A DNA stretch of 64,000 nt from a virus (Duplodnaviria; Heunggongvirae; Uroviricota; Caudoviricetes), in IMG/VR virus record IMGVR_UViG_3300048574_000421, one strand, 5' to 3'. The notes beneath the pieces are model-generated. The model worked only from the letters and a program-made list of their open reading frames with translations, was not told where the DNA came from and searched no databases. The stretch's first letter is position 1. Every line of letters begins with the position of its first letter. Positions 985 through 61,702 of the stretch are shown one piece after another. The position numbers and the translations under genes were made by a program.

Positions 985-1251
985 TCACCCGTAATAAGTA
1001 TAAACTTCAAGGCCCATTTTTTTATAAAAAGCAATAAGGTTTTCTAAACTGATAGAATTTTCTTTAGGTTTTGCTACAATTTTGATCACGTCTTTGTAAC
1101 CAGTTTCTCTTATCTCATTAATTGCTAATTGTATGAGTTCTTTTGCTTTTCCTTGTCTACGGTATTCTGGATAAACAAAAAGATCGTAAATGTGAGTATA
1201 GTCTAGTTCAAAATCATATTGGCAATGACCATATTGAGTTCGAATTAGCAC
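985..1251 (-). CDS. GNAT-family N-acetyltransferase
   Basis: The acetyl-CoA binding motif VYPEYRRQGKAKELI (R/Q-x-x-G-x-A/G) is followed by a C-terminal beta strand typical of the GNAT fold. Size is 88 aa. Confidence 0.55.
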   Translation of the reverse strand: MLIRTQYGHCQYDFELDYTHIYDLFVYPEYRRQGKAKELIQLAINEIRETGYKDVIKIVAKPKENSISLENLIAFYKKMGLEVYTYYG

Positions 1252-2177
1252 TAAATAATTGCTTTCTTTTTCAAACTATGTATGATAGCATCATCTATAG
1301 AAAATTTTGGTTTCCATTTTAATTTTTCAAAAGCTAATGACGAATCTGCAACCAAAAAATCAGGTTCGCCCTCTCTTTTGTTTTCTATAATTACTTGAAT
1401 TTTCTTTTTTGACAAAGTCTCGACTTTATTTACAAGATCTAACACAGTATGACCCGTTTCAGAACCTAAATTATAAATGCCATTATTGTTTAATCCAAGC
1501 ACTATAGCATCACTTATATCTGAAACATGAACATAATCTCTTAAACATGTGCCATCATAAGTCGAGCAATTCATGCCATAAATCCTAAAAGGTTTGTCAT
1601 TTATTACACTTTCTAACAAAGCAATTAAAATTCTTGAACTATTATTAATACCCAGTCCAAGTTCGAGAGATGGATCCGTTCCAACAACATTAAAAAAACG
1701 AAAAATAGAATAAGAAATGTCTGAATTTATTATTGCTTTTTCAGCAATCAATTTTGAAATACCATACGGATTAATAGGCTTTAAGTCTGAGTTTTCTGTT
1801 ATGGGCATAGGTGCATTTCCATACACAGAACAAGAACTTGAAAAAACTATCTTATTTACTTCAAATTCTTTCATGATTTTTAATAAAACAATTGTTCCAG
1901 CTGCATTGTTTCGTAAATATTTTTCTGGGTCTAAAATAGATTCATTTACGAAAGCAAAAGATGCAAGATGAATAACAGCTTTAAAATTGTATTTTGAAAA
2001 TATTGATCTTAAATTTTCTTCATTCAAAATATCACATATTTCAAATGTGCCATATTTTACAACATTTTTATCGCCATTGACTAAACTATCACAACAAACA
2101 TGTCGATAACCAAGACTAGATAGTTTTTTACATACATGACTACCTATATATCCAGCACCACCTGTAACTAAAATCAT
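1251..2177 (-). CDS. galE: UDP-glucose 4-epimerase (short-chain dehydrogenase/reductase, NAD-dependent)
   Basis: N-terminal Rossmann motif ILVTGGAGYIGSHV and catalytic YxxxK (PYGISKLIAEK). The track ORF runs up to 2231, but the conserved start MILVTGGAG corresponds to the ATG at 2177-2175. The upstream extension overlaps a 13-bp terminator hairpin. Confidence 0.8.
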   Translation of the reverse strand: MILVTGGAGYIGSHVCKKLSSLGYRHVCCDSLVNGDKNVVKYGTFEICDILNEENLRSIFSKYNFKAVIHLASFAFVNESILDPEKYLRNNAAGTIVLLKIMKEFEVNKIVFSSSCSVYGNAPMPITENSDLKPINPYGISKLIAEKAIINSDISYSIFRFFNVVGTDPSLELGLGINNSSRILIALLESVINDKPFRIYGMNCSTYDGTCLRDYVHVSDISDAIVLGLNNNGIYNLGSETGHTVLDLVNKVETLSKKKIQVIIENKREGEPDFLVADSSLAFEKLKWKPKFSIDDAIIHSLKKKAII

Positions 2178-2223
2178 ATTGTTTCTCTCATTATTCAAAA
2201 ACATTGCAAAGCAAATACTAAAA

Positions 2224-2253
2224 ATGAGCATATAGGATTTCCTATATGCTCAT
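2224..2253 (-). terminator. rho-independent terminator hairpin downstream of the flotillin gene
   Basis: Perfect 13-bp inverted repeat atgagcatatagg / cctatatgctcat with a 4-nt loop. On the minus strand it is followed by TTTTAGTATTT. Confidence 0.5.
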
Positions 2254-2278
2254 TGTAATATGCTAGTCAATGTCGCTG

Positions 2279-3736
2279 TTATTCTTTTTTTTCATCGACG
2301 CTATCAAAAATACCTTTTGTAGTTACGCCAATTTTACTAAGAAGACCACTAATGTCAAAACCCATTTGACTCATAACTTCTTGAAGCATTCCTAAATTTT
2401 TAGGAACTTGTCCTGCAAACTTTTGCATTCCGCTTTGACCATTTCCTGAGTCGATAATAACAACTTTATCAATAGCAGAAAGAGGTTGTGCAGCTTCTCT
2501 AACAATTGCAGGGAATTTTTCTAAGATACTTGGTAATTTCTCAAGGATCATTTGAAATTGTCCTGCATCATCAAGCATTTTATAAGCTTCAGCTTTTTTC
2601 ATAAGACCTTCAGCTTCACCCATAAGACGTGCTTTGATTGCGGCTCCTTCAGCTTCTCCAATTGCTAAGATTCTTGCAGCTTCTCCTTCACCTTCTAATC
2701 GAAGTTTACTCTTTGCAGCTTCAGCACTTTTAATTGTTGAAGCACGTTCACCTTCAGCTTTGGCAATTTTTGCAGTTGCTTCTTTTTCAGCAGGAACAAC
2801 TTTTTTCGCATGTTCTTCTTTTTCAGCGACAAGAATCATTTGTTCTTGAACCGCAATATTTGCTTTTTGACGAGCTTCTTCAATACCGACTTGCGCTTTT
2901 ATAACTTCTTGCATTGCTTCAGCATCAGATCTTGGTCCTGCTTGCTCTGCACGTGCTCGTTCTGCAGCTACTTGCGCATCAAACATTGCTTTCTTAACAT
3001 CACGTTCTTTAATTGCTTCAAAAGTAAGAGCATCGTTCTGTGCTGCAGCAATATTTCCATCTTTTTGTGCTGATGTTGATTGTTGTTTTGCTTCTTTATC
3101 TGCATTTGCTTGTCCAATTGAAGCATCACGCATAACTTCAGCAGTACGTTTTTTACCAAGGGACTCAATATACCCTGCATCATCAGTGATACTCTGAATA
3201 TTTAAAATGTCAATTCCAACACCAATTTTCCCAAGTTCACCGTCAGCTTCTGATTTTACTTTATTATTAAGAGCTTCACGATCTTTAATTAACTGTTCAA
3301 TAGACATTGTACCAATTACTGAACGTAATTGACCTTCAAGGTTTTCTTGAACTGTAACATGAATATCAGCATCTCTTTTCCCTAAAAATCTTTCGACAGC
3401 TGCATTAAGCGATGCTTGATCGCTTTTAATCTTACATGTTGCAACAGCATCAATATTTACTTTAACACCATCTAAGTTGGGAATTCCTTTTAATGGCATT
3501 TTCAATTGAAAAGCCGCCATATCCATTACTTGATAGTCTTCAATAACAGGCCATTTGAATTTAGCACCGCCAGTTACGACAACAAAACCTTTATCAAGAT
3601 GTTTTCTTCCAAAGAAAACAGCTGCTTTGTTGGGTGGTACTTTGATATAGTTCTTTGCAAGTAATGCGACGACAACTATTAAAGAAATTACAGCACCAAC
3701 TACTACAATTATCGGTAAAAAATCTTTAAATTCCAT
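2279..3736 (-). CDS. flotillin-like SPFH/band-7 domain protein
   Basis: N-terminal TM helix, then the SPFH core (KAAVFFGRKHLDKGFVVVTGGAKFKWPVIEDYQ...). A long A/E/K-rich coiled-coil region carries flotillin-type EA repeats (AEGERASTIKSAEAAKSKLRLEGEGEAARILAIGEAEGAAIKARLMGEAEG). Confidence 0.8.
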   Translation of the reverse strand: MEFKDFLPIIVVVGAVISLIVVVALLAKNYIKVPPNKAAVFFGRKHLDKGFVVVTGGAKFKWPVIEDYQVMDMAAFQLKMPLKGIPNLDGVKVNIDAVATCKIKSDQASLNAAVERFLGKRDADIHVTVQENLEGQLRSVIGTMSIEQLIKDREALNNKVKSEADGELGKIGVGIDILNIQSITDDAGYIESLGKKRTAEVMRDASIGQANADKEAKQQSTSAQKDGNIAAAQNDALTFEAIKERDVKKAMFDAQVAAERARAEQAGPRSDAEAMQEVIKAQVGIEEARQKANIAVQEQMILVAEKEEHAKKVVPAEKEATAKIAKAEGERASTIKSAEAAKSKLRLEGEGEAARILAIGEAEGAAIKARLMGEAEGLMKKAEAYKMLDDAGQFQMILEKLPSILEKFPAIVREAAQPLSAIDKVVIIDSGNGQSGMQKFAGQVPKNLGMLQEVMSQMGFDISGLLSKIGVTTKGIFDSVDEKKE

Positions 3737-3748
3737 TTAATCTCTCCT

Positions 3749-4321
3749 TCATATTATTTTAACAATTCCAACGTTTCCTGAAATTCTAATAATTTCAACG
3801 TTAGTACCTGACACAATTTGACAACCATTCTCTGATTGTACATCTAAAGAACGAACTTGACCTTCAATTTCGATAGTAATTTCTCCTGTTCCTTGTTGAG
3901 GTATACCAACTCTTAAAGGCGCTTTTAAGCCAACAAATTTTTCATTTGTAAAAAGTGATGAAGATTGTTGAGATAGAAAAAATTTGATTATACTCCATGC
4001 ACAAAATCCAATAATTATTCCAGATAACAAACCAAAAACACCATCAATAAAAATTCCCAATCCTATAATTTGACGTTGTTGTATCACCCAACTACTTATC
4101 CAACTGTGTGAAACAATTGCTCCCATCCCAAAACCTACAAGAAAACAAGCCATGACTTTTGCTGAGAAAAAACTTGGGCTAATTGTATTATCAACATCAT
4201 GTCCTGTAAAATCAATATGATGTTCAACATTTAACCCTTCAAACCCAAATAAAAATGATACAATCAAAAAAACAAACCCTGCTAAAAAAACACATAAATA
4301 AACTGTCATCAACATATCCAT
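3749..4321 (-). CDS. NfeD-like membrane protein (SPFH-associated partner)
   Basis: Three to four N-terminal TM helices, then a C-terminal beta-rich OB-like segment (GTGEITIEIEGQVRSLDVQ...GTNVEIIRISGNVGIVKII). It lies immediately upstream of the flotillin gene, which is the conserved NfeD-SPFH operon arrangement. Confidence 0.55.
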   Translation of the reverse strand: MDMLMTVYLCVFLAGFVFLIVSFLFGFEGLNVEHHIDFTGHDVDNTISPSFFSAKVMACFLVGFGMGAIVSHSWISSWVIQQRQIIGLGIFIDGVFGLLSGIIIGFCAWSIIKFFLSQQSSSLFTNEKFVGLKAPLRVGIPQQGTGEITIEIEGQVRSLDVQSENGCQIVSGTNVEIIRISGNVGIVKII

Positions 4322-4323
4322 TT

Positions 4324-4674
4324 TTAACTCTCCTTTATAAACTTAAATTTATTTGACTTTGTCTTATCTCCTACATGAGGTTTTTTGACATCGCCTGTTT
4401 TCTCAAAACAATCTTTACATATATGTTTTATAAGAAATATTGTTTGTGAATGTTTTCCCTCAGTTTTAGTTTGATTAACGTATTTTTCGCCTGGTAAAAT
4501 CGCTTTTTTACATTCAGTACATTTCCATTTTTTTCTTGCTGTAGTTGCTTTTGTAGTATATTTTGTCCCTGCAGCATCATGATAAGCATCAATCAAGTCT
4601 TTTCTTCCTTGATTTATCACATACTCAAAAATCTCTTCTAAAATCTTGTGTTGCTTGTTATATTCATAATACAT
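4324..4674 (-). CDS. hypothetical Cys-rich (zinc-ribbon-like) protein
   Basis: CTECKK...CKDC cysteine pairs. No further homology recognised. Confidence 0.4.
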   Translation of the reverse strand: MYYEYNKQHKILEEIFEYVINQGRKDLIDAYHDAAGTKYTTKATTARKKWKCTECKKAILPGEKYVNQTKTEGKHSQTIFLIKHICKDCFEKTGDVKKPHVGDKTKSNKFKFIKES

Positions 4675-4677
4675 GTT

Positions 4678-4839
4678 TTAATCTTCTAATTCAAGGACAA
4701 TATTTGTATCTAAGAGATTCACAGAAATGATTTTCTTTCCTAAAATTGTTATAGGATCTACAAGTTGCATTTGCTCATTAAAAACTACTTGAGTCCCGCC
4801 CAAATCTGGATGTGATTCATATTCAATCAAAATTTTCAT
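4678..4839 (-). CDS. small hypothetical protein (53 aa), not in the ORF track
   Basis: Hand translation of the minus strand gives MKILIEYESHPDLGGTQVVFNEQMQLVDPITILGKKIISVNLLDTNIVLELED*. It ends 3 nt before the start of the 4324..4674 gene. Confidence 0.3.
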   Translation of the reverse strand: MKILIEYESHPDLGGTQVVFNEQMQLVDPITILGKKIISVNLLDTNIVLELED

Positions 4840-4870: not shown

Positions 4871-4904
4871 AAACAAAAAAGTCTCTGGCGCAAGTACCAG
4901 AGAC
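4871..4904 (-). terminator. rho-independent terminator downstream of the tmRNA gene
   Basis: Perfect 8-bp stem gtctctgg / ccagagac with an 8-nt loop. On the minus strand it is followed by TTTTTTGTTTT. Confidence 0.55.
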
Positions 4905-4957
4905 TTTAATGAAGAGCTGGGATAGCTCTTTAGACAGGACAGGGATAAAAATTAAAA

Positions 4958-5360
4958 TGGAGGTAAAGGGAATTGAACCCTTGTCCATAGAACAATCCAA
5001 ACAAACTTCTACATGTTTATCTGATTTGTATCTTACATTCTTTTATCTTAAAACCAGAAAACTTTCTAAAAGAACGGCATAAACGTAATTTCGGTCCCCT
5101 TCTCACTTATGCACTTCGGTTTTCCTACGCTGTGTCAATTAGATCTTAAGCTCCACAGTATTGCCTAAGTTCTTCGTTGCTTTTAATTAAGCAACAATTG
5201 TATTCGCCATGCCCAAACGAACATTGTTCGCAAAAGCAAGAGCGAAATTAACTGCAATTTTGTTGACAGTTATATTGTAACCAGATTTTTAACGAGGCCA
5301 ACTGATCATCCTCGGCATGCAATCTGCACTTCATGTTCCATGTCGAAACCTGATACCCCC
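4958..5360 (-). ncRNA. ssrA: tmRNA (transfer-messenger RNA, ssrA)
   Basis: The minus strand 5' end GGGGGUAUCAGGUUUCGACAUGG matches the canonical tmRNA 5' end (E. coli GGGGCUGAUUCUGGAUUCGACGGG). Downstream, GCAUGCCGAGG...GUUGGCCUCGUUAAAAA matches the PK1 region of E. coli ssrA almost base for base. The 3' end GGACAAGGGUUCAAUUCCCUUUACCUCCA is a tRNA-like T-arm plus acceptor. The 5' GGGGGUA pairs with the 3' UACCUCC, giving the G3:U70 alanine identity pair, with discriminator A and CCA not encoded. Length is about 400 nt. The segment is ORF-free in the track. Confidence 0.75.
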
Positions 5361-7986: not shown

Positions 7987-8187
7987 TTACTTCTTCATCT
8001 CCTTTCGTTTCTTGTTTATAAGAATATATATAATTGTAAGTGTAATAGGCCAAAAAATCGAATAAAAAATTTTAGGTGTAATTTCTGTTGTCTTCCAAAA
8101 TTTTTCTAGTGTCATATAGATAAAAAATATAAGGCATAAAACTATATAAATTATAATAGGTGCATTAAAATGCATGTAAGCTCTCAC
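7987..8187 (-). CDS. small membrane protein (2 predicted TM helices), holin-like by architecture only
   Basis: 66 aa. Two hydrophobic helices (IIIYIVLCLIFFIYM and IFYSIFWPITLTIIYILI) and a basic C-terminus KKRKEMKK. Confidence 0.35.
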   Translation of the reverse strand: MRAYMHFNAPIIIYIVLCLIFFIYMTLEKFWKTTEITPKIFYSIFWPITLTIIYILINKKRKEMKK

Positions 8188-8693
8188 TTTTGTGTGTGTA
8201 AAATTGCAAATTCTGTTAAAATCGCAGTTGCTAACCCTGCAACAAAACCAAAATAAACTATGTTTTTCTCAAGCCATGTTCGTTCAACTTTCTTATTTAA
8301 TATCTTTATTTCATTTTGATAAACTTTTTCTACATCTAACGATTTGTCGTATAACACAGAATATAATGTATCAACCAATGCTATTTTTTTATCTAAGTAC
8401 ACATTATTGTTTTTATAAAAAATGTATAGAGCTGCTTTTTTTTCGCTAATCAAAATTCCAGGTCTTAACTGTATTGTATCTTTATAGATAGTAATTAATC
8501 TCCCAGAATCGACAGCAAATTGTTTAAAATCGGGTAAAGTAGAATCGACAATATCTTTATTGGGCGGCATTAATAAGTCTATATCAAGCTTTTCTGGAAG
8601 ATAACTATATTTTAAAGGTTGTTCCTGAATATTTGTTTTTGTTGAAGCACATGAAATCAACGTTATGCAAGCAAACAAAATTAGTTTTTTCAT
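8184..8693 (-). CDS. lipoprotein (possible outer-membrane spanin component)
   Basis: Signal peptide with lipobox MKKLILFACITLISC|AS. A hydrophobic C-terminal helix. Confidence 0.45.
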   Translation of the reverse strand: MKKLILFACITLISCASTKTNIQEQPLKYSYLPEKLDIDLLMPPNKDIVDSTLPDFKQFAVDSGRLITIYKDTIQLRPGILISEKKAALYIFYKNNNVYLDKKIALVDTLYSVLYDKSLDVEKVYQNEIKILNKKVERTWLEKNIVYFGFVAGLATAILTEFAILHTQK

Positions 8694-8697
8694 AATT

Positions 8698-9069
8698 TTA
8701 TCCCATTAATTCTGCTAAACGTTTACGACGCTCTCTATTATCTTCAATTTTTTGAGCATCTTTTAGTTCAGTCATCAATTGTTGATTTTCAGTTTTTGCA
8801 ACAGCAGCTTCAATTTTTACTACAGTATTAACTTCTTGCAACTTCTCTTTTATTTCAGACACATGATCTTTAATTTCATCTGAATCATTAGAAGTTGTCG
8901 CAGTTGTTGCTCTAATTGTAGAAATTATTTTCAAAATAAGAATCAAAATAGCAGGGATTAAAATTAAAGCATACTTCCAATATTTTTTCACAAAAGTTGT
9001 TTTTCTAAAAATTATCAAAAAAACAATAGCAATACAACAAATAACTAAAAGAACAAGCTCTGTTGTCAT
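8698..9069 (-). CDS. membrane-anchored coiled-coil protein (possible inner-membrane spanin component)
   Basis: N-terminal TM helices followed by a charged coiled coil (EIKEKLQEVNTVVKIEAAVAKTENQQLMTELKDAQKIEDNRERRKRLAELMG). It lies directly upstream of the lipoprotein gene, in the Rz/Rz1-like order. Confidence 0.4.
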   Translation of the reverse strand: MTTELVLLVICCIAIVFLIIFRKTTFVKKYWKYALILIPAILILILKIISTIRATTATTSNDSDEIKDHVSEIKEKLQEVNTVVKIEAAVAKTENQQLMTELKDAQKIEDNRERRKRLAELMG

Positions 9070-9072
9070 TTT

Positions 9073-9852
9073 TCACTCCTTTGTTTTATCAATTTCAATC
9101 AAATTCAAACGCCCAAACTTGTTAATATTTCCAATAAGACGTTTTTGATACCTTTTTATTAAAGCATCTTTGTCATATCTTATATCCATAACTTTTCGTA
9201 AGACTTTTTGATTATGATAAGATAAAACCCTATTATTTACTGCAGTATGGTGTATATGAAAAACATCAAAATTCATTGTAATATTTTTCATAAATCGTTC
9301 TACTAATACAGACATAACATCATCTTCAACACCCCAAACATTTGGTTCTTCATCCCAACCCTTAACCTTCAAAAAAGCTTGTTTTTTAAAGATACTTATT
9401 GAACTAGCAAAAGTTAATCCACGTCTTTTACTTAAAGAACTTTCTTGCTTTGATATTTTAAAAACATTAGGGTTTAAATCATAAATATCACCTTTAGGAT
9501 TTACAGCATCATATTCACCTATTTTTTTTACGGATTCAATAAGATCACTTATTGAAATCAAAATGTCGCTATCACAAAATACAAAAACATCATATTTTGC
9601 CTTTAATGCTGCAATATTCATTCCCCAAGATTTATTAAAATTACCAGAATTGCCAAGAAAAAAATAACGAATTGGAAATGACACATCTTTAAGAGTAGAA
9701 TGTTCACCTTGTTCAGTAACTATTATTTCAAATTCATATTGTTTTACAAAAGAAGAGTAATAATTAAGTGTCGTTAAAATAGCTTGTCTTCTATCTGAGT
9801 GCGATTCTTTATAAGGTATTATTAACGAAAACTTATTTTCTGAAACTTTCAT
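9073..9852 (-). CDS. family 2 glycosyltransferase
   Basis: GT-A fold signatures: SLIIPYKE...R...L (N-terminal beta-alpha), a DxD-like FCDSD, and C-terminal GWDE...WGVEDDV. Confidence 0.7.
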   Translation of the reverse strand: MKVSENKFSLIIPYKESHSDRRQAILTTLNYYSSFVKQYEFEIIVTEQGEHSTLKDVSFPIRYFFLGNSGNFNKSWGMNIAALKAKYDVFVFCDSDILISISDLIESVKKIGEYDAVNPKGDIYDLNPNVFKISKQESSLSKRRGLTFASSISIFKKQAFLKVKGWDEEPNVWGVEDDVMSVLVERFMKNITMNFDVFHIHHTAVNNRVLSYHNQKVLRKVMDIRYDKDALIKRYQKRLIGNINKFGRLNLIEIDKTKE

Positions 9853-51303: not shown

Positions 51304-54300
51304 TTAAGACCAAGTTACTGTATAAACATCTTGTATTCTACACATCTTATTTGTGATAGAAACAGCACCTAAACGATATCTTGTATCATTCAAATATGTA
51401 AAATAAATATCTGGTTGCTTCCCTGATTCAATTGAATATTTTTTTACGAACTCTCCTAGAATAAGTGGTTCTCTAAACTCTGAAATCCTGTCAAAATCTT
51501 CAGGAAAATCTGGGTTAGTAATTGTTGGATCTTCTTCAATACTTCCAGGGTATGGTAATCCAATATATGGTTCTCCAACATAAAGTAAAGCTACACCCAA
51601 AGTAGGTTTATCACACACATGAGCATGAGGCATTACTTCGGGTATTTGAATTCTACCAATTATTTCTCTTGTAATAATTGATTTTCTTTTTTCAATAAGC
51701 ATATCAACAGCATTATTTTCAAGATTAAAATCATCACTTGCTGTATCTTCAACATAGAAATATTCACTACCACCACCAAAAACGCTGTCAGGATCGTTAA
51801 GATAAAATGTCACAATTCTATAAATGAAATATTGATTGTACAAGTATGTCACTTCAATAACATCACCCCAAATAGGTACAGTATCAATAACAACAAGTCC
51901 TGTTAAAGGATCAATACTCAAAACAACAACAGGTGAACCATTAATTGTTACTATTATATCATCTGTTGTTGCAACGTGTGTTGAATCACTAAGAACAGGT
52001 ATTCTACTAATATAAAAGAAATTTTCTGATCCAGTAAACTGAGGTGATACATTGTCTGTGTATGTCTCTAATGCAGCCAAACCTTCACTACAATCTTCAC
52101 GCACATCTTCTTCAAAACGACTTACAAAACTATATTTGAATCTGTCACAAATAGCAGTGTCAGATTGTGTCTCAGCAGCTTGATAACCGTCATAAGCAAT
52201 TTGAGGAACTCTATTACCAAACTGATCTATCACATAATTTCCAAACAAATCTTTTTCCCATAAAAGAACGCAGCCAGCTTGAAAATCAAATGAATCTGTC
52301 CAAGAAAAACGTTGTACTACAAAAACATGTGCAGGTTTAACAAGATTAAAAACGTGCGTTAAATTATTACTTAAAGCAACTAAATCAACACCTGTAAATT
52401 TTTCATTTATAATAATATCAGCTGTAAAAACAAATTGATCAGAAATATCAGAACCTTTTGTGAATACAACTTCAATAATTTTCACATCGGTCCCGAGAAA
52501 CAGTGCAACACCTTCTTCAATTGATGACTTCAAAGATCCTTTAAAAAAAATCGATATTAAAGAAAGAAGCAACCTTCTATAATCATCATGAGAAAGACCT
52601 GTCACAGGTTTTGTATCAAGCAAATAACCTAGTTTTTCATAAAGATATAAAGGTCTTAGTGTATCATAATCTCTATCTAAATCGAGGTCATTAAAACTAT
52701 CTTGGTACCTTGAAAGTTCTAACGAAATCGCTTTATGATGCCCATAAAAGTTAGTCGATTTTGAACGAGAATAATTACTTGCAATATTCTGTTGTATATC
52801 ATTTATGTACTCTAATGCAACTCTATTCAGGTAATTCCTTTTTTTCACTGATGTTGTTGCATAAATATGAGGAATGAAAACATAAGAAAAAACATCCATC
52901 ACATTATTAGAATTGTCTGAAGAATAAATTTTAACAGAGACAGGCACTTTATGCTCAAAACTAAAACTTGGACTTGCAAAAACCAAGTAACCTTTTCCTC
53001 TTTCAATAAAAGAGAAGTTCAAGTTTTCTTCTGGCAAATAAAAATCTACAATGTTTTGTTGCTTAATATCTAAACTTCCAACATTCAACAATAACGTACT
53101 TTCAGTTTGTTCAAATCTTGCATCTATAATTTCAGCTGAATAATCAGGTAAACTATTCAAATACAATTCAATCTTTTTAATTGTATTATAGTTTGACTCA
53201 TAAAAGCTTATCGAAATATCTTTTAATGAATCAACATAAGTTGTCAAAGATTTGTTATAAATTTGCAGTGTTGCTGAACTTGCAGAACCTGTATATTGAA
53301 CTTTTAAAATATTTCTAAAATTAATCTTAAAATCTATACTATTTATATTTACTACAACAGTTTTTATGTTTACACCAGACTGACTATCATCTATAAAAGC
53401 AATTACGTTAGAGTTTGTTGAAACATCTTGAACATTAGGTGCAGGATATGTTTCTCTTACCCAAGGACTTGTCAAATCAGGTTTAATTAAATTAAACTCT
53501 AAAGTAGGCGTTACATTGCCAGCAAAATCTGTTATGTTTTTTACTTTTAAAATCTCTACATCTTGAAAATTCAAAAGTTGTGCTATCGGAGAGATAACTA
53601 CTGTATAAAGAGACTGTGTGCCTGTATAAGAAAAATATGAAGAATTTTTTTGTGTTGAATAAACAATTCCATCAACATCAATCTCAATAGAATCAATGTT
53701 CACACCAGATAAAGAATCACTAACTTGGAATGAAATCTGTGTTGTAGAATCTGTTATTATACAATCTACAGGTGAAAAATTCGATACTTCAGATGCTTCA
53801 AGATCAATATTGACAACTTGCGTCTTAATTGTTTCTATATTACCAGCATTGTCTATAGAAAAGAACTTTAATGTATAAGTTCCAGAAGAAGAGAACTCTA
53901 CAAAACTACCAGAAGGTGATGATATATTAGGATCAGTACCATCTGTTGTATAATATGTAGTAGCAACACCTGATCCTGTATCTACAACAACAAAATTAAT
54001 TATAGAATGTGAAGTATAACCCAGTAAAGGTGCATCTGTTGTTGTCTCTGGAGGTGTGATATCATATTTTACAACAGAAACTCTTTCTTGTTCTATGTTG
54101 CCTACATTGTCAGTACTATAATATGTAATTGTTACAGCACCCTCAACAGGCAATAAAAAGGGTACTCCAGTATACTCAATAAATGCTAAATCATCATTTA
54201 TTCTATAAAAAGTTTGATTTGCTCCTGAATAAACATCAATAACAGTAAAACTAATTTCAGGTTGTGTTCTATACCACCAGTTTTCACCATCAGGTGTTGA

Positions 54301-57300
54301 TGGGTCAATATTAATGATGGTAATAGGAGGATCAGCATCTACATTTAAAAGATTTCCACACGACTTTGTAGTTTCTTCATTTCCCGCAATATCAACAGAA
54401 AAATATTGCACGTCGTAGATTCCAGAAGAACCAAGATTTATTGTTGTCCCTTCAGATGAAACTCTTGAAGGGATTAAACCATCAGTAGTAAAGTAAGTCT
54501 TTGAAACACCAGAACCAGGCATTACATCATTTGGTGTTAACAATATTGTAATTGGAGCTTTTATCCAATCTGTAGTCGTAGGTGCATCGTCTGTAGTCAC
54601 AGGTGCAACTCTATCAAGTTTATAAGGTATTGATTTGATTTTGCTTTGTTTTTGTGGTACACCTGTTCCTAAGACAGTGTTGTTATCATAAACTTGAGCA
54701 TAAACTGAGTGCAAACCATCTTGCGAATAAAATTGCTCTAATGTTCTAGAAAAATGAACAAGGTAATTTACTCTATCATTTGACATGTCAACAAATTTAC
54801 TTACATCATTGTATACTTGTACTTCTGTGATTAAACTTGTACTTTCTAAACCTAAAGCTACTTTCTCAATTCCTATATAATGCGTATAATCTACAAGCAC
54901 TTTATCTTTTAAAGAGTAATGTGCTACATAAACTGCACCAGACAATGGACTTAAGATTGTTACAACTCTACTACCATCAAAAACATAATCTGTATCTTGT
55001 ATTAGAGGAATAGAATTTCTTGTGACTACTAAAGTACCTGACATTGGTACATTACTTAGATAATCAGTTGGTAAAGATTGACTGATGTCGAGATTTTGAT
55101 TGACGTCAATAACTAAAGGTATAGAATTTGCTATTGGTCCAGTAACTAAAATTTCATCATAAAATCCGTCAGATCCCTGAAGAATTTCTACACATACAAA
55201 TTGTTTTTTAGAAATTGATGTTTTTACACACTCTACAGTTTTTACAAACTGATTTGCAAGTTTAAACTTATAGTAAGTAGATGAATAGATATGGTTACTT
55301 GTTTTATCAACAGGCAAATAATCAGGGTTTGTACTTCCAAAACCAATAGTATTTCCAATTGATCTTAATTTATTTACACCTGTTGCCCATAATAAATTAA
55401 AATTATTTGTTGGATTTGTTTCTATTTTAAATGAATAACCTTCAGACACAGAACTTTCAGCTAAACTTACTACATAATTAAATGTACCTACATCATTGAG
55501 TCTGTTTTGGATTTCTGTAGCTAATTGTTGACTTGTATAAGTTCCAGCTGTAATAGTTGCAACTAATGGCACGCCAATTACTTCTTCAAAATCTATTGTA
55601 TCGTTTTGTGCAGTTACAACTATGTGTGTATTTGCTTCAACAACATCTTCATCAATTCTGTTTACGCGATCACTTGACCATAGTTCTACGTTTAAATCGA
55701 AATTATACTTGAACCAACCATTTTCTCCATTTTCTAAAGGATCAGTAACAAATTCAAGTTGTAAATCAGGTTCACGTTTGTCTATAGTGACTTCAAATTG
55801 AGCTTTTTTGACAGCTTCAGTATTTCCTGCTGCATCAACAGAATAATAAAAAATCTTATAAGTATCAGACAATGATAATTCTATTACAGTTCCCTCAACC
55901 CAAGTAGCAAGCTCAAAAGCATCTTCAGGTAACAAATTTTCATCATAATCTAACGAGTAATATGTATGTTCTATGTATGACGAAACATCTGTTGGGAACA
56001 AATGAACAACAACATCATAGTCAATAACGTAAGGTTGATATTGAGGATCAATTAGTGAATAATTTACAGAACTTGAAACTTGCGGATCATGTGATATATC
56101 GTAAGCATAAGCAATATCTATAACATCACCAAAAGAAAGAGGTATACCAGAAAATTTGTAATCAACCTCAAGTCTATCACCAAGATCTATCTGTTGTGTT
56201 CCTATAAGCACAAGATTTCCATCTTGTGTTGAAAGATTTCTGTTTATAGAGTAACTGCAACTTTTTGTTTTATTGTAAACCCTTAAAACATCATCAAAAC
56301 TCGAAAGCACTGAACTTCCAAGACCTAAAAGTTGTATATTAAAATCACCAAGTCTTGTAGAGTTTTCGTTTCTTATTATTGGTAAAACTTCAATTTCATC
56401 TTTGTCAACACCTGTAGCTTGAACAAAAACATATTCCTGTGATTTTGTTATGTTAAAAAATCGAGGTACAGCTACAACATTAGGTTTTTTTACTTTTACA
56501 TGATAAGGGTCAATAACAACAGGGTTTTCATCTATAACTTGTTGATGTCCTGAACCCCTTGTTGTAAAGATTATGCCTTGAAAATTTATTGTGTCATCAG
56601 AAGTAACAGGGTTTGTATAATCAAATTTATACAAAATACGTTGATGATCTTCTTCATTTCCTGCATAATCTATTGAATAGATTTCAAGATAATGTTCGCC
56701 TTGATTTGGAATTTGTATCTCAGTACCAACAACATACTCTTGCCAACAAGTCTCGTCCCATCTGTAATAAGTTCTATATACACCTGAAAGATTATCTTCA
56801 GTCGACAGTGTAATTATAGGATTTGTTATATACCAACCATTATTTCCATCAGGTTCGAAACTATTATTTACAGAAGTAACAGGATTTTCTGAGTCAAGTT
56901 TATAACGTTTTGATGCAATTTGACTTTGATTATCGTCATTATCTACTGAATAATATTCGATTTGCCAAAAATTATCAGCAGGAATTGTAAAAGGTACTGT
57001 GTATGGGACAAAAACAACAGTCTCAGTAAATGGAGACAGAAGTAGTGCATTTTGACCAAAAACTTCTTGAGTAGCATCATTACTTAAAACAGGTAAAAAT
57101 CTTATTTCTGAAGTAGAACTACCTGTTCCTGCTGTAGGTGACGTTAAAGTAACATATCCATTTCCAGACAAACCATCAGGGCCTGTCTCAGATGCAATAT
57201 TCTCTCCTGTAATAGAATTTATTGCGCCAATAATTTCTGTGATAGTAGTTTGAAAAGGTATGACACCTCTTAAATCAACTTCAAAAAATTGACCAGATTG

Positions 57301-59298: not shown

Positions 59299-59368
59299 AA
59301 AATTCCCTATTTGTTCGATTACATTTTGTTTCTAATTACAAAACAAGATAAAAACTTTTCAAATTATT

Positions 59369-59767
59369 TTATGATTCTGGTTCGTTCATAAACCAAGTCG
59401 TATTAAAATCCCAGTTTTCAAAAACATCAAGTGTTCCTTTTACTGTCATCACGTTTGTCGTTTTACCAAAACCTTCAACTGAAGTAGAAATACCTGAAGT
59501 TTGTGTATCCCAATAAGATGGGCCCAAACTAATCCATTTTGCATAAAGCGTCAAATCAAATGTTGCAAAAAACGTGCTATACTCGAAATAATCTGTGCCA
59601 GAGCCATCAGGTTGTGTATTCCAGCAATAAAAAAAATAATCATCTTTTACTAAATCACCATGCGGTAAAATAGACACCGATGTTTCTTGCAGATAAGGAC
59701 TATTACTATCTACAGGTGCTGTGCCACTAGTATTACCATTACCTTGATATGTAATTACAATTGCCAT
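59369..59767 (-). CDS. Listeria-Bacteroides repeat domain protein (132 aa)
   Basis: ITYQGNGNTSGTAPVD ... FFYCWNTQPDGSGTDYF ... LTLYAKW fits the about 70-aa Listeria-Bacteroides (InlB B-repeat-like) domain. Confidence 0.55.
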   Translation of the reverse strand: MAIVITYQGNGNTSGTAPVDSNSPYLQETSVSILPHGDLVKDDYFFYCWNTQPDGSGTDYFEYSTFFATFDLTLYAKWISLGPSYWDTQTSGISTSVEGFGKTTNVMTVKGTLDVFENWDFNTTWFMNEPES

Positions 59768-59789
59768 AATTTTCTCTCATTTAATTATT

Positions 59790-61676
59790 TCAACTTATAG
59801 TAGCAACAAGGCCACCATTTATAATACTTGTCCATTTTGCATAAAGTACTATGCTATCATTGCCAACTCTATAATAACTACCTGGGAAAAAATCAATTCC
59901 TGTACCACTTATACTAGTGTTCCATGAGTAAAATACTGCACTTTCTTTTACTAAAGTCCCAGGTGTAAGTATCAAAAAAATGTCCCCTGTAGTGTATTCT
60001 CCTGGGTCGACTGGTACAACACCTCCAGTATTCCCATTGCCTTGATATGTAACTGTGTATAAAGATGTTGCTTCATACGCACCAATACTTGGTGGATTAA
60101 AATAAGGTCTTCCTAAAATATCAAAATTAACACTAGTTTGTAAACCTGAATGATAACATGGACTTGATTGATCTATTGAAAGAGGATCTTGACCAACCCC
60201 TAAAAACAACGGATTTTCAAGGACATTATTTGAGTTTTGAAGATCTGTAATTGCTGATCTAGTAAAATCAATATGTAAATTACTTGGTCCACTTATGAAT
60301 TGAAAAGCATTATTTAAAAAATAAAATTTTTCAAAATCAAGATAAGTATAACTAATTGTTGCACTTGCAATATTATTAAAAGAATTTGCAATCACTGAAC
60401 CTTCAAAAGTTATACTTTCGCCTCCAGTAGTGAATTTCATAATGTCACCACCTGTTACTGCTGCATAAATATCACCATTATAATCTTGACAAACACCAAA
60501 ATAATTTCTTGGGTGTGAATCAATTGCAACATAATCTCCAATACCTTCTAACTGAACATAGACGCCACCACTTTGAACAACAGCAAATATATCGCCATTA
60601 GGAGAAGAATTTATTTGTTTCCATGACCTTGGTGTTTGGTTTAATGGAATGAAAGAAGCTCCATCGTCTTCACTAACATAAATATCACCATTACTAACAC
60701 AAGCGAAGATAATACCATAAGGTGCAACAGTAATTCCACTCCAGTAATTATCAACAATTCCTAAAGAAACAAAAGCTCCAATTCCTCCAGTTTGTTTCCA
60801 TATACCATAAGTTCTAGAACCTTGAGGAAGTTGAACTGAACCATTTGTAAGATACACATCCCCATTAGGAGCCACAGCAATTGCAGATATAGAAATATTA
60901 CTATTAACTACAGCTTGAACTGCGTCAAAATCACCAATTCCATTTGTTTGTTTATAAACACCTGTAGAAGTACAAGCATAAATGTCACCATTAGGTGCAG
61001 CAGCAATTGCACCACTCCAGTTTCTTTGTGTAATAGCTAATGGATTAAAAGTACTTCCACCTGCATCTCTTTTATAAAGATACCCATATGTGGCTATTGA
61101 CACATAAATATTGTTAGATGGATCTACTGCTAATTGTTTCCAGTTTCCTGATGTTTGACCTGTACCTACAAATCTGTCAAGTGGTCCTTCGTCACGTAAA
61201 TAAACAGCATCACCGATAAAGTTTTCAAATGTATTACATGAAACAGAAATGCTTGTTGTTCGACTATTGCAATAGATTGCATTTTGCGTTATATTATTGC
61301 CATTAAATCTACATCTTGAAATATCAAAATTCCCATCACAATAAACAAATAAAGCATCTTCACTATCTGTTAAAAATGAAATATTTTGAATTAACACTCC
61401 ATCAGGGTTTGTACCATAAATAGTACAACTACTCATATTTAATTTATCTGTAAGTGAATCTTGTCCTATCAAACTAGCACCATTAAATGTATACCACATC
61501 CACTCATCAGGTTCGTAAACTTCACCATGGACATAGACAACATCACCAGAAACTAATTCAAAAATAGAATGACCATCTAGTCCAAGAAACAACTCATACA
61601 AAGATATAGCTGCAGTAGCTCTTGAATCGTAAGGATATGTATTTGAGCCTGTTGCTTCTACATAATATGTCGCCAT
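59790..61676 (-). CDS. fibre-associated protein with beta-propeller-like repeats and a C-terminal Listeria-Bacteroides repeat
   Basis: Recurrent (A/S)PNGD(I/V)(Y/F)A blades (APNGDIYACTSTGVYKQ, APNGDVYLTNG, SPNGDIFAVVQSGGVY, DYNGDIYAAVTGGDIMKF). The C-terminus is TVTYQGNGNTGGVVPVD...FYSWNTSISGTGIDFF...VLYAKW. Confidence 0.6.
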   Translation of the reverse strand: MATYYVEATGSNTYPYDSRATAAISLYELFLGLDGHSIFELVSGDVVYVHGEVYEPDEWMWYTFNGASLIGQDSLTDKLNMSSCTIYGTNPDGVLIQNISFLTDSEDALFVYCDGNFDISRCRFNGNNITQNAIYCNSRTTSISVSCNTFENFIGDAVYLRDEGPLDRFVGTGQTSGNWKQLAVDPSNNIYVSIATYGYLYKRDAGGSTFNPLAITQRNWSGAIAAAPNGDIYACTSTGVYKQTNGIGDFDAVQAVVNSNISISAIAVAPNGDVYLTNGSVQLPQGSRTYGIWKQTGGIGAFVSLGIVDNYWSGITVAPYGIIFACVSNGDIYVSEDDGASFIPLNQTPRSWKQINSSPNGDIFAVVQSGGVYVQLEGIGDYVAIDSHPRNYFGVCQDYNGDIYAAVTGGDIMKFTTGGESITFEGSVIANSFNNIASATISYTYLDFEKFYFLNNAFQFISGPSNLHIDFTRSAITDLQNSNNVLENPLFLGVGQDPLSIDQSSPCYHSGLQTSVNFDILGRPYFNPPSIGAYEATSLYTVTYQGNGNTGGVVPVDPGEYTTGDIFLILTPGTLVKESAVFYSWNTSISGTGIDFFPGSYYRVGNDSIVLYAKWTSIINGGLVATIS

Positions 61677-61702
61677 AATTTTTCTACTCTCATATTAGAT
61701 TA

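What the first reader, a model, noticed from the sequence alone, without database searches (positions are those of the whole stretch)
2279..4321. Flotillin (SPFH) plus NfeD membrane-scaffold operon in a phage-like context
A 485-aa flotillin with EA-repeat coiled coil and an upstream multi-TM NfeD-like partner are arranged exactly as in bacterial SPFH-NfeD operons. A 13-bp terminator hairpin follows. SPFH proteins organise membrane microdomains and in some bacteria are linked to phage resistance. A phage-encoded copy could remodel host membrane during infection or act in superinfection exclusion.
Basis: partly seen in the sequence, partly recalled or inferred. Interest (0 to 1): 0.6.

Follow-up and report, generated by a model that had tools for sequence, protein, structure and literature searches.

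The report
Flotillin–NfeD membrane-scaffold pair in huge phage
A roughly 425-kb bacteriophage from landfill-type metagenomes carries an intact, strongly conserved copy of the bacterial two-gene module (flotillin plus its NfeD partner) that builds protein cages on the cell membrane, so the virus probably brings its own membrane scaffold into the cell it infects.

Summary
ORF 2279-3736(-) is a full-length flotillin: Band_7 E=1.4e-27, Flot above cut-off, and best PDB and fold matches to the solved flotillin-1/2 cages. ORF 3749-4321(-) is a short, YuaF-type NfeD with three TM helices and a C-terminal OB domain. Pfam scores it below threshold (E=0.17). Its family profile hits YuaF at 2e-9, 39 of 65 relatives hit PF01957 (E<=0.01), and the six best fold matches are all NfeD structures. 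A strong terminator follows (14-bp stem, -24.6 kcal/mol).

The context is a huge phage: contigs of 422-427 kb, T4-type replication genes, a tmRNA, and tRNA arrays in relatives. The NfeD-then-flotillin order is canonical, seen in 86 of 88 related loci.

In this lineage the pair is stably inherited. It matches phage base composition (GC3 0.15 against 0.89 in the closest relative). It is under strong purifying selection (dN/dS 0.05-0.19). The flotillin has the lowest dN of eight genes compared, below UvsX.

Flotillin genes are very rare in deposited phages: about 11 of 50,697 records match, and two are complete phages, one with an NfeD-like partner.

The function in infection is inferred, not shown. 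I favour maintenance of the infected cell's membrane and proteins. This is a new member of a known kind, of moderate interest.

The parts
2279..3736 (-). Flotillin gene (485 aa). It encodes an N-terminal membrane anchor (about residues 6-27), an SPFH/Band_7 domain (about 30-213), two long Ala/Glu-rich helices (189-265 and 270-386) and a C-terminal flotillin domain.
   Evidence: Pfam Band_7 E=1.4e-27 and Flot E=3.3e-8, both above cut-off. PDB sequence search gives flotillin-1 at 5e-56 over residues 35-467. The top four Foldseek hits are flotillin-1/2 cage chains. dN/dS is 0.05-0.09.
3749..4321 (-). Short (YuaF-type) NfeD gene (190 aa). It encodes three TM helices (3-28, 49-81, 88-120), a conserved SQQSSS linker and a C-terminal OB-fold partner-binding domain (about 125-190). 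It has no protease domain.
   Evidence: The direct Pfam NfeD hit is only E=0.17. The family profile hits YuaF (2K14) at 2.3e-9. 39 of 65 relatives hit PF01957 at E<=0.01. The Foldseek top six are all NfeD structures. The model's C-terminal domain has pLDDT 87-90. dN/dS is 0.15-0.19.
3737..3748 (-). 12-nt intergenic spacer with an AGGAGA ribosome-binding site 6-7 nt upstream of the flotillin ATG. The spacing suggests co-transcription and independent translation initiation.
   Evidence: Read directly from the sequence.
2213..2254 (-). Intrinsic terminator closing the unit: a 14-bp stem, a 4-nt loop and a T-rich tail.
   Evidence: Terminator scan. RNA fold gives -24.6 kcal/mol, z=-6.2.
4324..4674 (-). 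Upstream 116-aa ORF with two CxxC pairs (zinc-ribbon-like). Its stop lies 2 nt from the NfeD start and it is probably co-transcribed. It is not part of the conserved module: it is present in L089 and absent next to the pair in L001.
   Evidence: ORF list and sequence. Weak hits only, phrog_7314 at 9.6e-6 and the Sir2 Zn-module at 0.0068. Synteny.
4678..4839 (-). Upstream 53-aa ORF. It would be the first gene after the preceding terminator and a possible first cistron of the same transcription unit. No function is assigned, and it had no tblastn match in the syntenic relative L089, so it may not be a real gene.
   Evidence: No family hits.
4878..4907 (-). Terminator just downstream of the tmRNA gene. 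It marks the upstream boundary of the unit that contains the pair.
   Evidence: Terminator scan: 12-bp stem followed by TTTGTTTTAT.

Best explanation
The locus is a functional flotillin-NfeD membrane-scaffold module of the bacterial YuaF/FloT type. A phage lineage captured it long ago from a bacterium as a two-gene unit, and a lineage of huge (about 425 kb) phages has inherited it vertically since. Shown here: the identity of both proteins, the canonical gene order, the phage residence, the base-composition amelioration and the strong purifying selection. Inferred from solved homologues: during infection the two genes are co-transcribed. The flotillin anchors in the host cytoplasmic membrane through its N-terminal hydrophobic helix. 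It then oligomerises through its long Ala/Glu-rich helices into a closed dome or cage that fences off a patch of membrane. The three-TM NfeD sits in that patch and binds and stabilises the flotillin oligomer with its cytoplasmic OB domain. The most likely pay-off for the phage is upkeep of the infected cell. Candidate effects are keeping membrane fluidity and integrity, and holding unfolded or aggregation-prone membrane proteins without spending ATP, as reported for S. aureus FloA-NfeD. This would keep the cell productive through the long, costly replication of a very large genome. I put identity and functionality at about 0.95, cage-plus-NfeD assembly on the host membrane at about 0.8, and the specific 'cell maintenance' role at about 0.35-0.4. 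The overall confidence figure given (0.55) is a blend of these.
For: Identity comes for the flotillin, and for the NfeD. The gene order is canonical: an NfeD-family ORF lies directly upstream on the same strand in 86 of 88 flotillin loci that have room for one.

The NJ trees of the two proteins are broadly congruent. The phage copies fall in the same clade in both, which suggests the pair was acquired as a unit.

Phage residence is supported by contigs of 422-427 kb and an IMG/VR UViG. The 424-kb contig is listed as viral in the landfill study PMC12607003. The window holds UvsX, gp32-like SSB, SbcCD, primase and helicases and a phage-wide family, phrog_2426, present in 503 phage records. It also has a tmRNA, and relatives have tRNA arrays.

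The pair is not a passenger. dN/dS is 0.05-0.09 for the flotillin and 0.15-0.19 for the NfeD, at dS of about 0.1-1.2. The flotillin dN of 0.058 is the lowest of the eight genes compared between the two phages (UvsX 0.100, SSB 0.174, SbcD 0.157). GC3 is 0.15-0.16, like other phage genes, against 0.89 in the closest outgroup gene. The pair is kept while every other gene but one within 10 kb on either side differs between the window and L001.

The mechanism is drawn from the literature. Flotillin forms a 44-mer dome that isolates a 30-nm membrane patch (PMC13000311; PMC11260169). NfeD binds flotillin and stabilises the oligomer, and the complex holds unfolded proteins without ATP (PMC11222466). 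QmcA-YbbJ (8Z5G) is the top fold match of the NfeD model.

The neighbourhood fits cell maintenance: a tmRNA upstream, GalE and GNAT downstream, and tRNA arrays nearby in relatives.
Against: There are no expression, localisation or interaction data, and the host is unknown. The maintenance role rests on analogy with Firmicute flotillins and on gene neighbourhood, which is weak evidence in phages. The NCBIfam FloT equivalog model is far from met (228.7 bits against a cut-off of 700). The protein is therefore not an orthologue of the studied B. subtilis FloT. S. aureus FloA is a shorter flotillin type, so functional transfer is indirect. Monomer models have only moderate confidence (mean pLDDT 66-67). 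The dN comparison covers only eight genes, and dS is near saturation.
Confidence: 0.55

Rival explanations
1. The pair is a platform for the phage's own machinery. The flotillin cage concentrates or stabilises phage-encoded membrane proteins, such as envelope-modifying enzymes, lysis proteins, or secretion or assembly factors. It could also tether replication or assembly sites to the membrane, much as bacterial flotillins scaffold secretion systems and signalling complexes.
For: Bacterial flotillins scaffold multi-protein membrane complexes, for example the S. aureus T7SS (PMC5718613, listed). The window encodes several phage membrane proteins close by at 7987-9069 and a glycosyltransferase at 9073-9852. 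Very tight sequence conservation of the flotillin would suit a hub with many partners.
Against: No specific client can be named. The genes flanking the pair are not conserved between the window and L001, so there is no fixed co-inherited client next to it. This explanation is compatible with the main one rather than exclusive of it.
Confidence: 0.2
2. The pair acts in superinfection exclusion or inter-phage competition. The phage-made cage alters the membrane so that DNA injection or membrane-dependent steps of competing phages fail.
For: Phage-encoded inner-membrane proteins often act in exclusion (general knowledge). A paper on phage GIB1 speculates that its SPFH lipoprotein acts in adsorption or DNA entry (PMC13239085).
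Against: There are no PADLOC hits for the flotillin, the NfeD or two neighbours. I found no described exclusion or defence system built on flotillin plus NfeD. Exclusion genes usually evolve fast and are patchy, whereas this flotillin is among the slowest-evolving genes compared.
Confidence: 0.1
3. The pair controls a host membrane protease. By analogy with HflK/C caging FtsH, the phage cage would sequester or modulate FtsH or another membrane protease, either to protect phage proteins or to redirect host proteolysis.
For: HflK/C-FtsH cage structures are among the fold matches (7WI3, 9CZ2). From textbook knowledge, HflK/C-FtsH controls lambda CII stability, and B. subtilis flotillins have been linked to FtsH.
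Against: The protein is a flotillin, not HflK/C. Flotillin chains match at E of about 1e-23 and 32-33% identity, against about 1e-10 and 15-18% for HflK/C. The NfeD is the short type with no protease domain. No protease gene lies beside the pair.
Confidence: 0.1
4. The finding is an artefact, a passenger, or not a phage. The pair could be host DNA mis-assembled into the contig or a decaying recent pickup, or the 425-kb element could be a small cellular genome or megaplasmid. One source labels a protein of the 422-kb contig 'Candidatus Nanoarchaeia archaeon'.
For: NCBI's name for P0004 assigns it to a Nanoarchaeia MAG. No capsid, portal or terminase gene lies within this 64-kb window.
Against: The pair recurs in independent assemblies from different samples and sources: JGI, ENA and Logan. 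It has phage-like base composition and is under strong purifying selection. The surrounding genes are T4-type phage replication genes plus a family found in 503 phage genomes. The 424-kb contig is in IMG/VR and in a published list of viral scaffolds. No ribosomal or other cellular core genes were seen in the window.
Confidence: 0.04

Closest known systems
B. subtilis yuaF-yuaG(floT) operon (NfeD2/YuaF plus flotillin FloT)
   Same: The gene order is the same, with the short NfeD immediately upstream of a flotillin of about 500 aa. The NfeD has the same multi-TM N-terminus and C-terminal OB domain, and YuaF (2K14) is the best PDB sequence match of the NfeD family profile at E=2.3e-9. The flotillin has the same layout of anchor, SPFH domain, EA-rich helices and Flot domain. 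The NCBIfam FloT model aligns end to end, residues 10-468.
   Different: It is not an orthologue: 228.7 bits against an equivalog cut-off of 700. It is encoded by a huge phage rather than a chromosome. It belongs to a separate flotillin clade whose cellular members include Parcubacteria and unnamed high-GC bacteria.
Eukaryotic flotillin-1/flotillin-2 cage (PDB 9BQ2, 9L3G)
   Same: This is the best sequence and structure match in the PDB: E=5e-56 over residues 35-467, and 32-33% identity over 407-440 aligned columns. The order of SPFH, CC1, CC2 and CTD domains is the same as the one that builds the 44-mer dome.
   Different: Eukaryotic flotillins attach by acylation and hairpins and have no NfeD partner (PMC11222466). 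Here there is a hydrophobic N-terminal helix and an NfeD partner. Only one flotillin gene is present, so the assembly would be a homo-oligomer. Its stoichiometry is unknown.
S. aureus FloA-NfeD and E. coli QmcA-YbbJ (8Z5G) SPFH-NfeD complexes
   Same: Both are two-gene SPFH plus short-NfeD modules in which the NfeD OB domain binds the SPFH oligomer. YbbJ in 8Z5G is the top fold match of the phage NfeD model, E=5e-6 over 152 columns including the TM part. The functional model of an ATP-independent holdase or membrane microdomain comes from FloA-NfeD.
   Different: FloA and QmcA are short stomatin-like SPFH proteins (about 300 aa) without the flotillin C-terminal domain. QmcA is only rank 25 among the flotillin model's fold matches.
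Flotillin-family genes in deposited phages: Vibrio phage KIT04 (LC487410) and gut phage csAssE-Sib (OR575929)
   Same: Both are full-length flotillin-family proteins encoded by bona fide phages. csAssE-Sib also has an NfeD-like gene directly upstream (E=6e-8), so a phage-borne NfeD-flotillin pair already exists in GenBank.
   Different: They share only about 30% identity with the window protein, restricted to the SPFH part in BLAST. Both are singletons with no close phage relatives carrying the gene. KIT04's upstream gene is an 82-aa TM protein without an OB domain. Neither is discussed in the literature I could search. The window's pair is conserved across a phage lineage.

Membership tests
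Flotillin (SPFH superfamily, flotillin branch) | SPFH / Band_7 domain | tested here: met
   PF01145 scores 97.3 bits against a cut-off of 23.6, E=1.4e-27, residues 32-213. The mouse flotillin-2 Band 7 domain (1WIN) matches at 2.6e-18.
Flotillin (SPFH superfamily, flotillin branch) | C-terminal flotillin domain (PF15975) following long Ala/Glu-rich helices | tested here: met
   PF15975 scores 34.1 bits against a cut-off of 27. Residues 215-400 are 23% Ala and 15% Glu. The model has helices at 189-265 and 270-386.
Flotillin (SPFH superfamily, flotillin branch) | N-terminal membrane anchor | tested here: met
   There is a Kyte-Doolittle peak of 3.32 over residues 1-34, and the model has a helix at 7-27. 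The topology itself was not tested.
Flotillin (SPFH superfamily, flotillin branch) | Closer to flotillins than to the other SPFH branches (stomatin, prohibitin, HflK/C, erlin) | tested here: met
   By PDB sequence, flotillin-1/2 score 5e-56 and 4.5e-48 against stomatin at about 1e-4. By Foldseek, flotillin chains score about 1e-23 to 1e-20 against 1e-11 or weaker for the others.
Flotillin (SPFH superfamily, flotillin branch) | Assembly into a closed, membrane-attached oligomeric cage | not testable with these tools
   This is inferred from homology to 9BQ2 and 9L3G. It needs expression followed by cryo-EM or cryo-ET.
FloT equivalog (NCBIfam NF058507, B. subtilis-type FloT) | Score at or above the curated equivalog cut-off | tested here: not met
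   The score is 228.7 bits against a cut-off of 700, although the alignment is end to end. The protein is a flotillin but not a FloT orthologue.
NfeD (short, YuaF/YbbJ type) | C-terminal NfeD OB-fold partner-binding domain (PF01957) | tested here: met
   The direct hit is sub-threshold (12.5 bits against 29.1, E=0.17) and so inconclusive on its own. The feature is met at family and fold level. 39 of 65 family members hit PF01957 at E<=0.01, best 1.9e-8. The family profile hits YuaF at 2.3e-9, plus 3WWV, 2K5H and 3CP0. The top six Foldseek matches are all NfeD structures, on a C-terminal domain modelled at pLDDT 87-90.
NfeD (short, YuaF/YbbJ type) | Multi-pass hydrophobic N-terminal half | tested here: met
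   There are three hydrophobic segments, modelled as helices 3-28, 49-81 and 88-120.
NfeD (short, YuaF/YbbJ type) | Encoded adjacent to, and co-oriented with, an SPFH gene | tested here: met
   A 12-nt gap separates it from the flotillin. The same arrangement occurs in 86 of 88 related loci.
NfeD (short, YuaF/YbbJ type) | Physical binding of the OB domain to the SPFH partner | not testable with these tools
   No multimer prediction or experiment was available.
Long NfeD (NfeD1a, with ClpP-like serine protease domain) | N-terminal ClpP-class protease domain | tested here: not met
   The protein is only 190 aa and has no protease-family hit even at E<=10. It is the short type.
Known anti-phage defence systems (PADLOC-DB 2.0) | Match to any defence-system protein model | tested here: not met
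   There are no hits for the flotillin, the NfeD, ORF116 or GalE at E<=0.01.

The most novel reading that the evidence does not exclude
In this huge-phage lineage the flotillin cage would be a core, phage-specified part of the infection cycle rather than an optional helper. The phage would build its own membrane compartments or anchoring platforms in the host, for example to organise replication, assembly or envelope remodelling. This would be the bacterial counterpart of raft or flotillin use by eukaryotic viruses. Being essential would explain why the flotillin evolves more slowly than the phage's own recombinase.
Probability: 0.1. Interest if true: 0.75.

Novelty: new member of a known kind. 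Interest (0 to 1): 0.4.

Why it matters
Flotillin-NfeD modules are near-universal in bacteria, but their physiological role is still debated. A virus that keeps an intact copy under very strong purifying selection, through complete base-composition turnover and shuffling of neighbouring genes, is an independent sign that the module gives a direct, portable fitness benefit to an infected cell. It adds membrane and proteome scaffolding to the 'cell-maintenance' genes that huge phages carry, alongside tRNAs and tmRNA. It also offers a compact, self-contained two-gene system for testing what flotillin cages do. The practical limits are that the host is unknown and uncultured, and that flotillin genes, one with an NfeD-like partner, already sit unremarked in a few deposited phage genomes.

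Tried and rejected
- Direct Pfam, NCBIfam and PHROG scans of the 190-aa protein gave nothing at E<=0.01. Raising the limit to E<=10 gave only the sub-threshold NfeD hit. A family profile and a structure model were needed.
- PADLOC gave no hits.
- Megablast of the first 25 kb against deposited phages gave no match. A tblastn of the NfeD against the same set also gave no match.
- The exact-sequence look-up of the window's NfeD (P0001) was not on record, so the window's own contig could not be fetched.
- Cluster-member names for the ten closest flotillin clusters gave no organism names. The donor lineage stays unresolved. The nearest named genome is a Parcubacteria MAG at 51%, and the closer unnamed relatives (56-62%) include at least two high-GC loci, one of them clearly cellular.
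- I considered L088 (135 kb, 62% GC, one-strand gene array, Apyc1-like gene) and the 74.7-kb contig of P0015 as further independent phage lineages with the pair. Ten L088 ORFs gave no hallmark PHROG hit, so this is not claimed.
- The DnaB-based scan of IMG/VR failed to recover the 424-kb relative, a limit of the peptide patterns. UvsX worked instead.
- The 124-aa NfeD call in the 422-kb contig looked like a truncation. It is an annotation artefact: the DNA is identical to L001 and the ORF is intact.
- The 'Enterococcus' and 'Listeria phage' flotillin hits are small, unannotated records. The one I opened, OR846627, is flagged UNVERIFIED_ORG. I did not count them as phage flotillins.
- A CPR-host idea, raised by the Parcubacteria and SR1 best hits, was not pursued further. 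The closer relatives are high-GC. A lipoprotein with a C-terminal TM at 8184-8693 hints at a diderm host, but this is weak.
Full report
**1. What is in the sequence**

The spacer contains an AGGAGA ribosome-binding site.

A 14-bp-stem hairpin with a T-rich tail sits 25 nt downstream of the flotillin stop, at 2254-2223. It folds at -24.6 kcal/mol with z=-6.2, and none of 200 shuffles fold as well. The hairpin overlaps the first ATG of the mechanically listed 326-aa GalE ORF. GalE's real start is Met19, because profile hits begin at residue 19-20 and the orthologue is called at 308 aa.

A second terminator at 4907-4878 follows a tmRNA gene. The terminator-bounded unit therefore holds four tightly packed ORFs: 53 aa, 116 aa, NfeD-like and flotillin.

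**2. Identity of the 485-aa protein**

It is a flotillin.
- Pfam Band_7 (E=1.4e-27) and Flot (E=3.3e-8) both exceed their curated cut-offs.
- The best PDB sequence matches are human flotillin-1 and -2 (5e-56 and 4.5e-48, nearly full length), far ahead of stomatin at about 1e-4.
- An AlphaFold model built on 20 homologues shows an N-terminal helix (7-27), an alpha/beta SPFH domain (30-185), two very long helices (189-265, 270-386) and a helical C-terminus.
- Its four best Foldseek matches are the flotillin-1/2 protomers of the solved cages, at 32-33% identity over 407-440 columns. HflK/C, stomatin, prohibitin, erlin and QmcA follow.
- The NCBIfam FloT equivalog aligns end to end but scores 228.7 bits against a cut-off of 700. 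The protein is a flotillin but not a FloT orthologue.

**3. Identity of the 190-aa protein**

Direct profile scans were nearly blank. The only signals were PF01957 NfeD at E=0.17 and B. subtilis YuaF (2K14) at E=0.62. I therefore built its family.
- Six close homologues came from a word-indexed search.
- An exhaustive profile search then returned 1,461 relatives at E<=0.001. The 150 listed are mostly 165-215 aa and nearly all align almost end to end.
- Of 65 sampled members, 39 hit PF01957 at E<=0.01 on their own, best 1.9e-8.
- The 65-sequence profile hits YuaF at 2.3e-9, and three other NfeD C-domain structures more weakly.
- The model has three TM helices plus a five-strand beta domain at pLDDT 87-90.
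- Its six best Foldseek matches are all NfeD structures. First is YbbJ in the E. coli QmcA-YbbJ SPFH-NfeD complex (8Z5G), aligned over 152 columns and so including the membrane part.

It is a short, protease-less NfeD of the YuaF/YbbJ type.

**4. Is the arrangement canonical?**

Yes. I took HMMs of both families and scanned 92 sequences: 91 fetched flotillin loci and the first 12 kb of the window. These comprised 80 species-representative genomes, several metagenome contigs and the phage relatives. An NfeD-family ORF lies directly upstream on the same strand in 86 of the 88 that have at least 650 nt of upstream sequence.

**5. What carries it**

The window is all one-strand, 31% GC. It encodes UvsX-like recombinase, gp32-like SSB, SbcC/D-like nuclease, DnaB-like and other helicases, primase, ligase and exonuclease. 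It also encodes a 729-aa protein of phrog_2426, which occurs in 503 deposited phage genomes.

The same proteins occur on contigs of 422,226, 424,144 and 426,911 bp. The 424-kb contig is an IMG/VR UViG. It comes from a Southern Ontario landfill leachate well and is listed among predicted viral scaffolds in PMC12607003.

A tmRNA (Rfam, 127 bits) lies 630 nt upstream of the NfeD gene. Relatives carry arrays of 13-14 tRNAs a few kb downstream of the pair. No virion genes fall inside this window.

One source labels a protein of the 422-kb contig as from a Nanoarchaeia MAG, which I take to be mis-binning. Checking the full contig for capsid and terminase genes is the obvious confirmation.

**6. History of the pair in the phage**

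L089 (Logan SRR11845629) is fully syntenic with the window, including the tmRNA, ORF116, GalE and GNAT. L001, L002, L003 and L005 are one phage seen in several samples; L001 and L003 are base-identical across the NfeD gene. Within 10 kb on either side that phage shares only the pair with the window, plus one remote 32%-identity match. On a larger scale the pair sits in the same region and orientation relative to UvsX in both phages.

Between these two phages:

| Gene | Amino-acid identity | dN |
|---|---|---|
| Flotillin | 91-93% | 0.058 |
| UvsX | 84% | 0.100 |
| SSB | 73% | 0.174 |
| SbcD | 76% | 0.157 |
| NfeD | 70-71% | 0.183 |

- The flotillin dN is the lowest of the eight genes I could compare.
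- dS for the flotillin is about 1.07, so the similarity is not a recent transfer.
- dN/dS is 0.05-0.09 for the flotillin and 0.15-0.19 for the NfeD.
- GC3 of both genes (0.15-0.16) matches other phage genes. The closest outgroup flotillin (P0010, 62% identity) has GC3 0.89.
- NJ trees of the two proteins are broadly congruent. The phage copies fall in a clade with a Parcubacteria MAG (51%), two clearly cellular loci at about 60% GC, and L088, well apart from the large Acidobacteriota-dominated group.

The simplest reading is one old capture of the two-gene unit from a bacterium, followed by vertical inheritance under strong constraint. The donor lineage is not resolved.

**7. How unusual is it?**

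Among 50,697 deposited phage records, only 11 match the flotillin, all at 37% identity or less, and none matches the NfeD by tblastn. Most of these are small unannotated records. The one I opened is flagged UNVERIFIED_ORG.

Two are real complete phages with genes annotated 'flotillin family protein': Vibrio phage KIT04 (T5-like) and the 151-kb gut phage csAssE-Sib. My NfeD HMM shows that the 164-aa 'transmembrane protein' upstream of the csAssE-Sib flotillin is NfeD-like (E=6e-8). KIT04's upstream gene is an 82-aa TM protein without an OB domain. Both are singletons.

IMG/VR scans, which are limited to short peptide patterns, found one further small UViG with the pair (L086). In the searchable literature, SPFH proteins in phage genomes are mentioned only in passing and called unexplained (PMC13239085, PMC13384950). 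I found no paper on a flotillin-NfeD operon in a jumbo or huge phage, and the landfill paper does not mention it.

The kind of module is therefore well known, and phage-borne examples exist unremarked in GenBank. This is a new, lineage-conserved member.

**8. Mechanism**

Shown here: both proteins are intact and constrained, and they carry every sequence and fold feature of their families.

Inferred from solved homologues: the flotillin anchors by its N-terminal helix and assembles through its long helices into a closed dome on the cytoplasmic face. Human flotillin forms a 44-mer dome enclosing a 30-nm patch (PMC13000311). The NfeD sits in the membrane with its OB domain in the cytoplasm and binds and stabilises the oligomer (PMC11222466; 8Z5G).

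For the benefit to the phage I favour maintenance of the infected cell: membrane integrity and fluidity, and ATP-independent holding of unfolded proteins, as reported for S. aureus FloA-NfeD. This fits the neighbouring tmRNA, tRNA arrays and sugar-metabolism genes, but it is an inference, at about 0.35-0.4.

The rivals are a scaffold for phage membrane machinery (0.2), superinfection exclusion (0.1; no PADLOC hits, and the gene evolves too slowly for a typical exclusion gene), control of a host membrane protease by analogy with HflK/C-FtsH (0.1), and artefact or non-phage (0.04).

**9. Verdict**

The finding is a solid example of a host-derived structural module kept by a huge phage, but it is not a new kind of system. 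Interest is moderate at 0.4. Two things raise it: the unusually strong conservation of the flotillin relative to core phage genes, and the rarity of the module in phages. Three things lower it: canonical anatomy, existing (unstudied) phage examples, and an unknown host.

Noticed in passing
window 4955-5360 (-): A full-length tmRNA gene lies 630 nt upstream of the NfeD gene and has its own terminator at 4907-4878. Rfam RF00023 scores 127 bits, E=2e-49. The ARAGORN tag is VNKIAVNFALAFANNVRLGMANTIVA*, and from general knowledge I would expect a tag ending in ...LAA. The gene is conserved in the syntenic relative L089 (123 bits).
   Followed up: partly
window 7987-9069 (-): Three small membrane proteins lie in a row. 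The first is 66 aa with 2 TM helices. The second is 169 aa with a lipobox (MKKLILFACITLISC) and a C-terminal TM, which resembles a unimolecular spanin and hints at a diderm host. The third is 123 aa with 2 TM helices and a charged C-terminal tail. This could be a lysis or envelope cassette. No family hits were obtained.
   Followed up: partly
window 985-2231 (-): Directly downstream of the pair are a GalE-type UDP-glucose 4-epimerase (TIGR01179, 288.7 bits, above cut-off) and an 88-aa mini-GNAT acetyltransferase. Both are conserved in L089 and absent next to the pair in L001. From memory, the B. subtilis yuaF-floT operon also ends in a GNAT gene (yuaI). No GNAT follows the flotillin in the cellular relatives I looked at, so this is probably coincidence.
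   Followed up: partly
window 51304-63772 (-): There is a run of very large surface or adhesin-like ORFs. One is 2,664 aa with three Big_7 Ig domains and a CHB_HEX_C domain. One is 628 aa with a weak, sub-threshold Listeria-Bacteroides repeat hit. One is 689 aa with GLUG motifs. None has a PHROG hit. They could be fibre or host-recognition proteins.
   Followed up: no
window 4324-4674 (-): A 116-aa ORF with two CxxC pairs (zinc-ribbon-like) ends 2 nt before the NfeD start. It has weak hits to phrog_7314 (unknown function) and to the zinc module of Sir2. It is conserved in L089 (85%) but is not beside the pair in L001.
   Followed up: partly
L001 13863-20413; L089 16060-20105: Arrays of 13 and 14 tRNA genes lie a few kb downstream of the flotillin in the two related phages. 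That region lies beyond the start of the window.
   Followed up: no
L100 1899-2393 (phage csAssE-Sib, OR575929, protein WOZ57346.1): The 164-aa gene annotated only as 'transmembrane protein', directly upstream of this deposited phage's flotillin, matches the NfeD family HMM (E=6e-8, aligned over model positions 6-165). It looks like an unrecognised NfeD partner.
   Followed up: partly
P0004 / L003 9433-9999: NCBI attributes a protein of the 422-kb contig to a 'Candidatus Nanoarchaeia archaeon' MAG, which is probably a huge-phage contig mis-binned into a DPANN genome. The 124-aa gene call there is a start-codon artefact. The ORF is intact at 188 aa and identical to L001.
   Followed up: yes
NfeD residues ~28-47 (window 4183-4240), alignment A3: The loop between TM1 and TM2 of this NfeD family is rich in conserved His and Asp residues (consensus ...DHD......HD..HD...). 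It is modelled with pLDDT below 50. A metal-binding or regulatory role is conceivable but unexplained.
   Followed up: no
L088 (JGI 3300041078, 135-kb contig, 62% GC): This is a one-strand array of mostly unannotated small genes. It includes an anti-Pycsar Apyc1-like metallo-hydrolase and an NfeD-flotillin pair (48-49% identity). It looks like a mobile element or phage, but ten ORFs gave no hallmark PHROG hit.
   Followed up: partly
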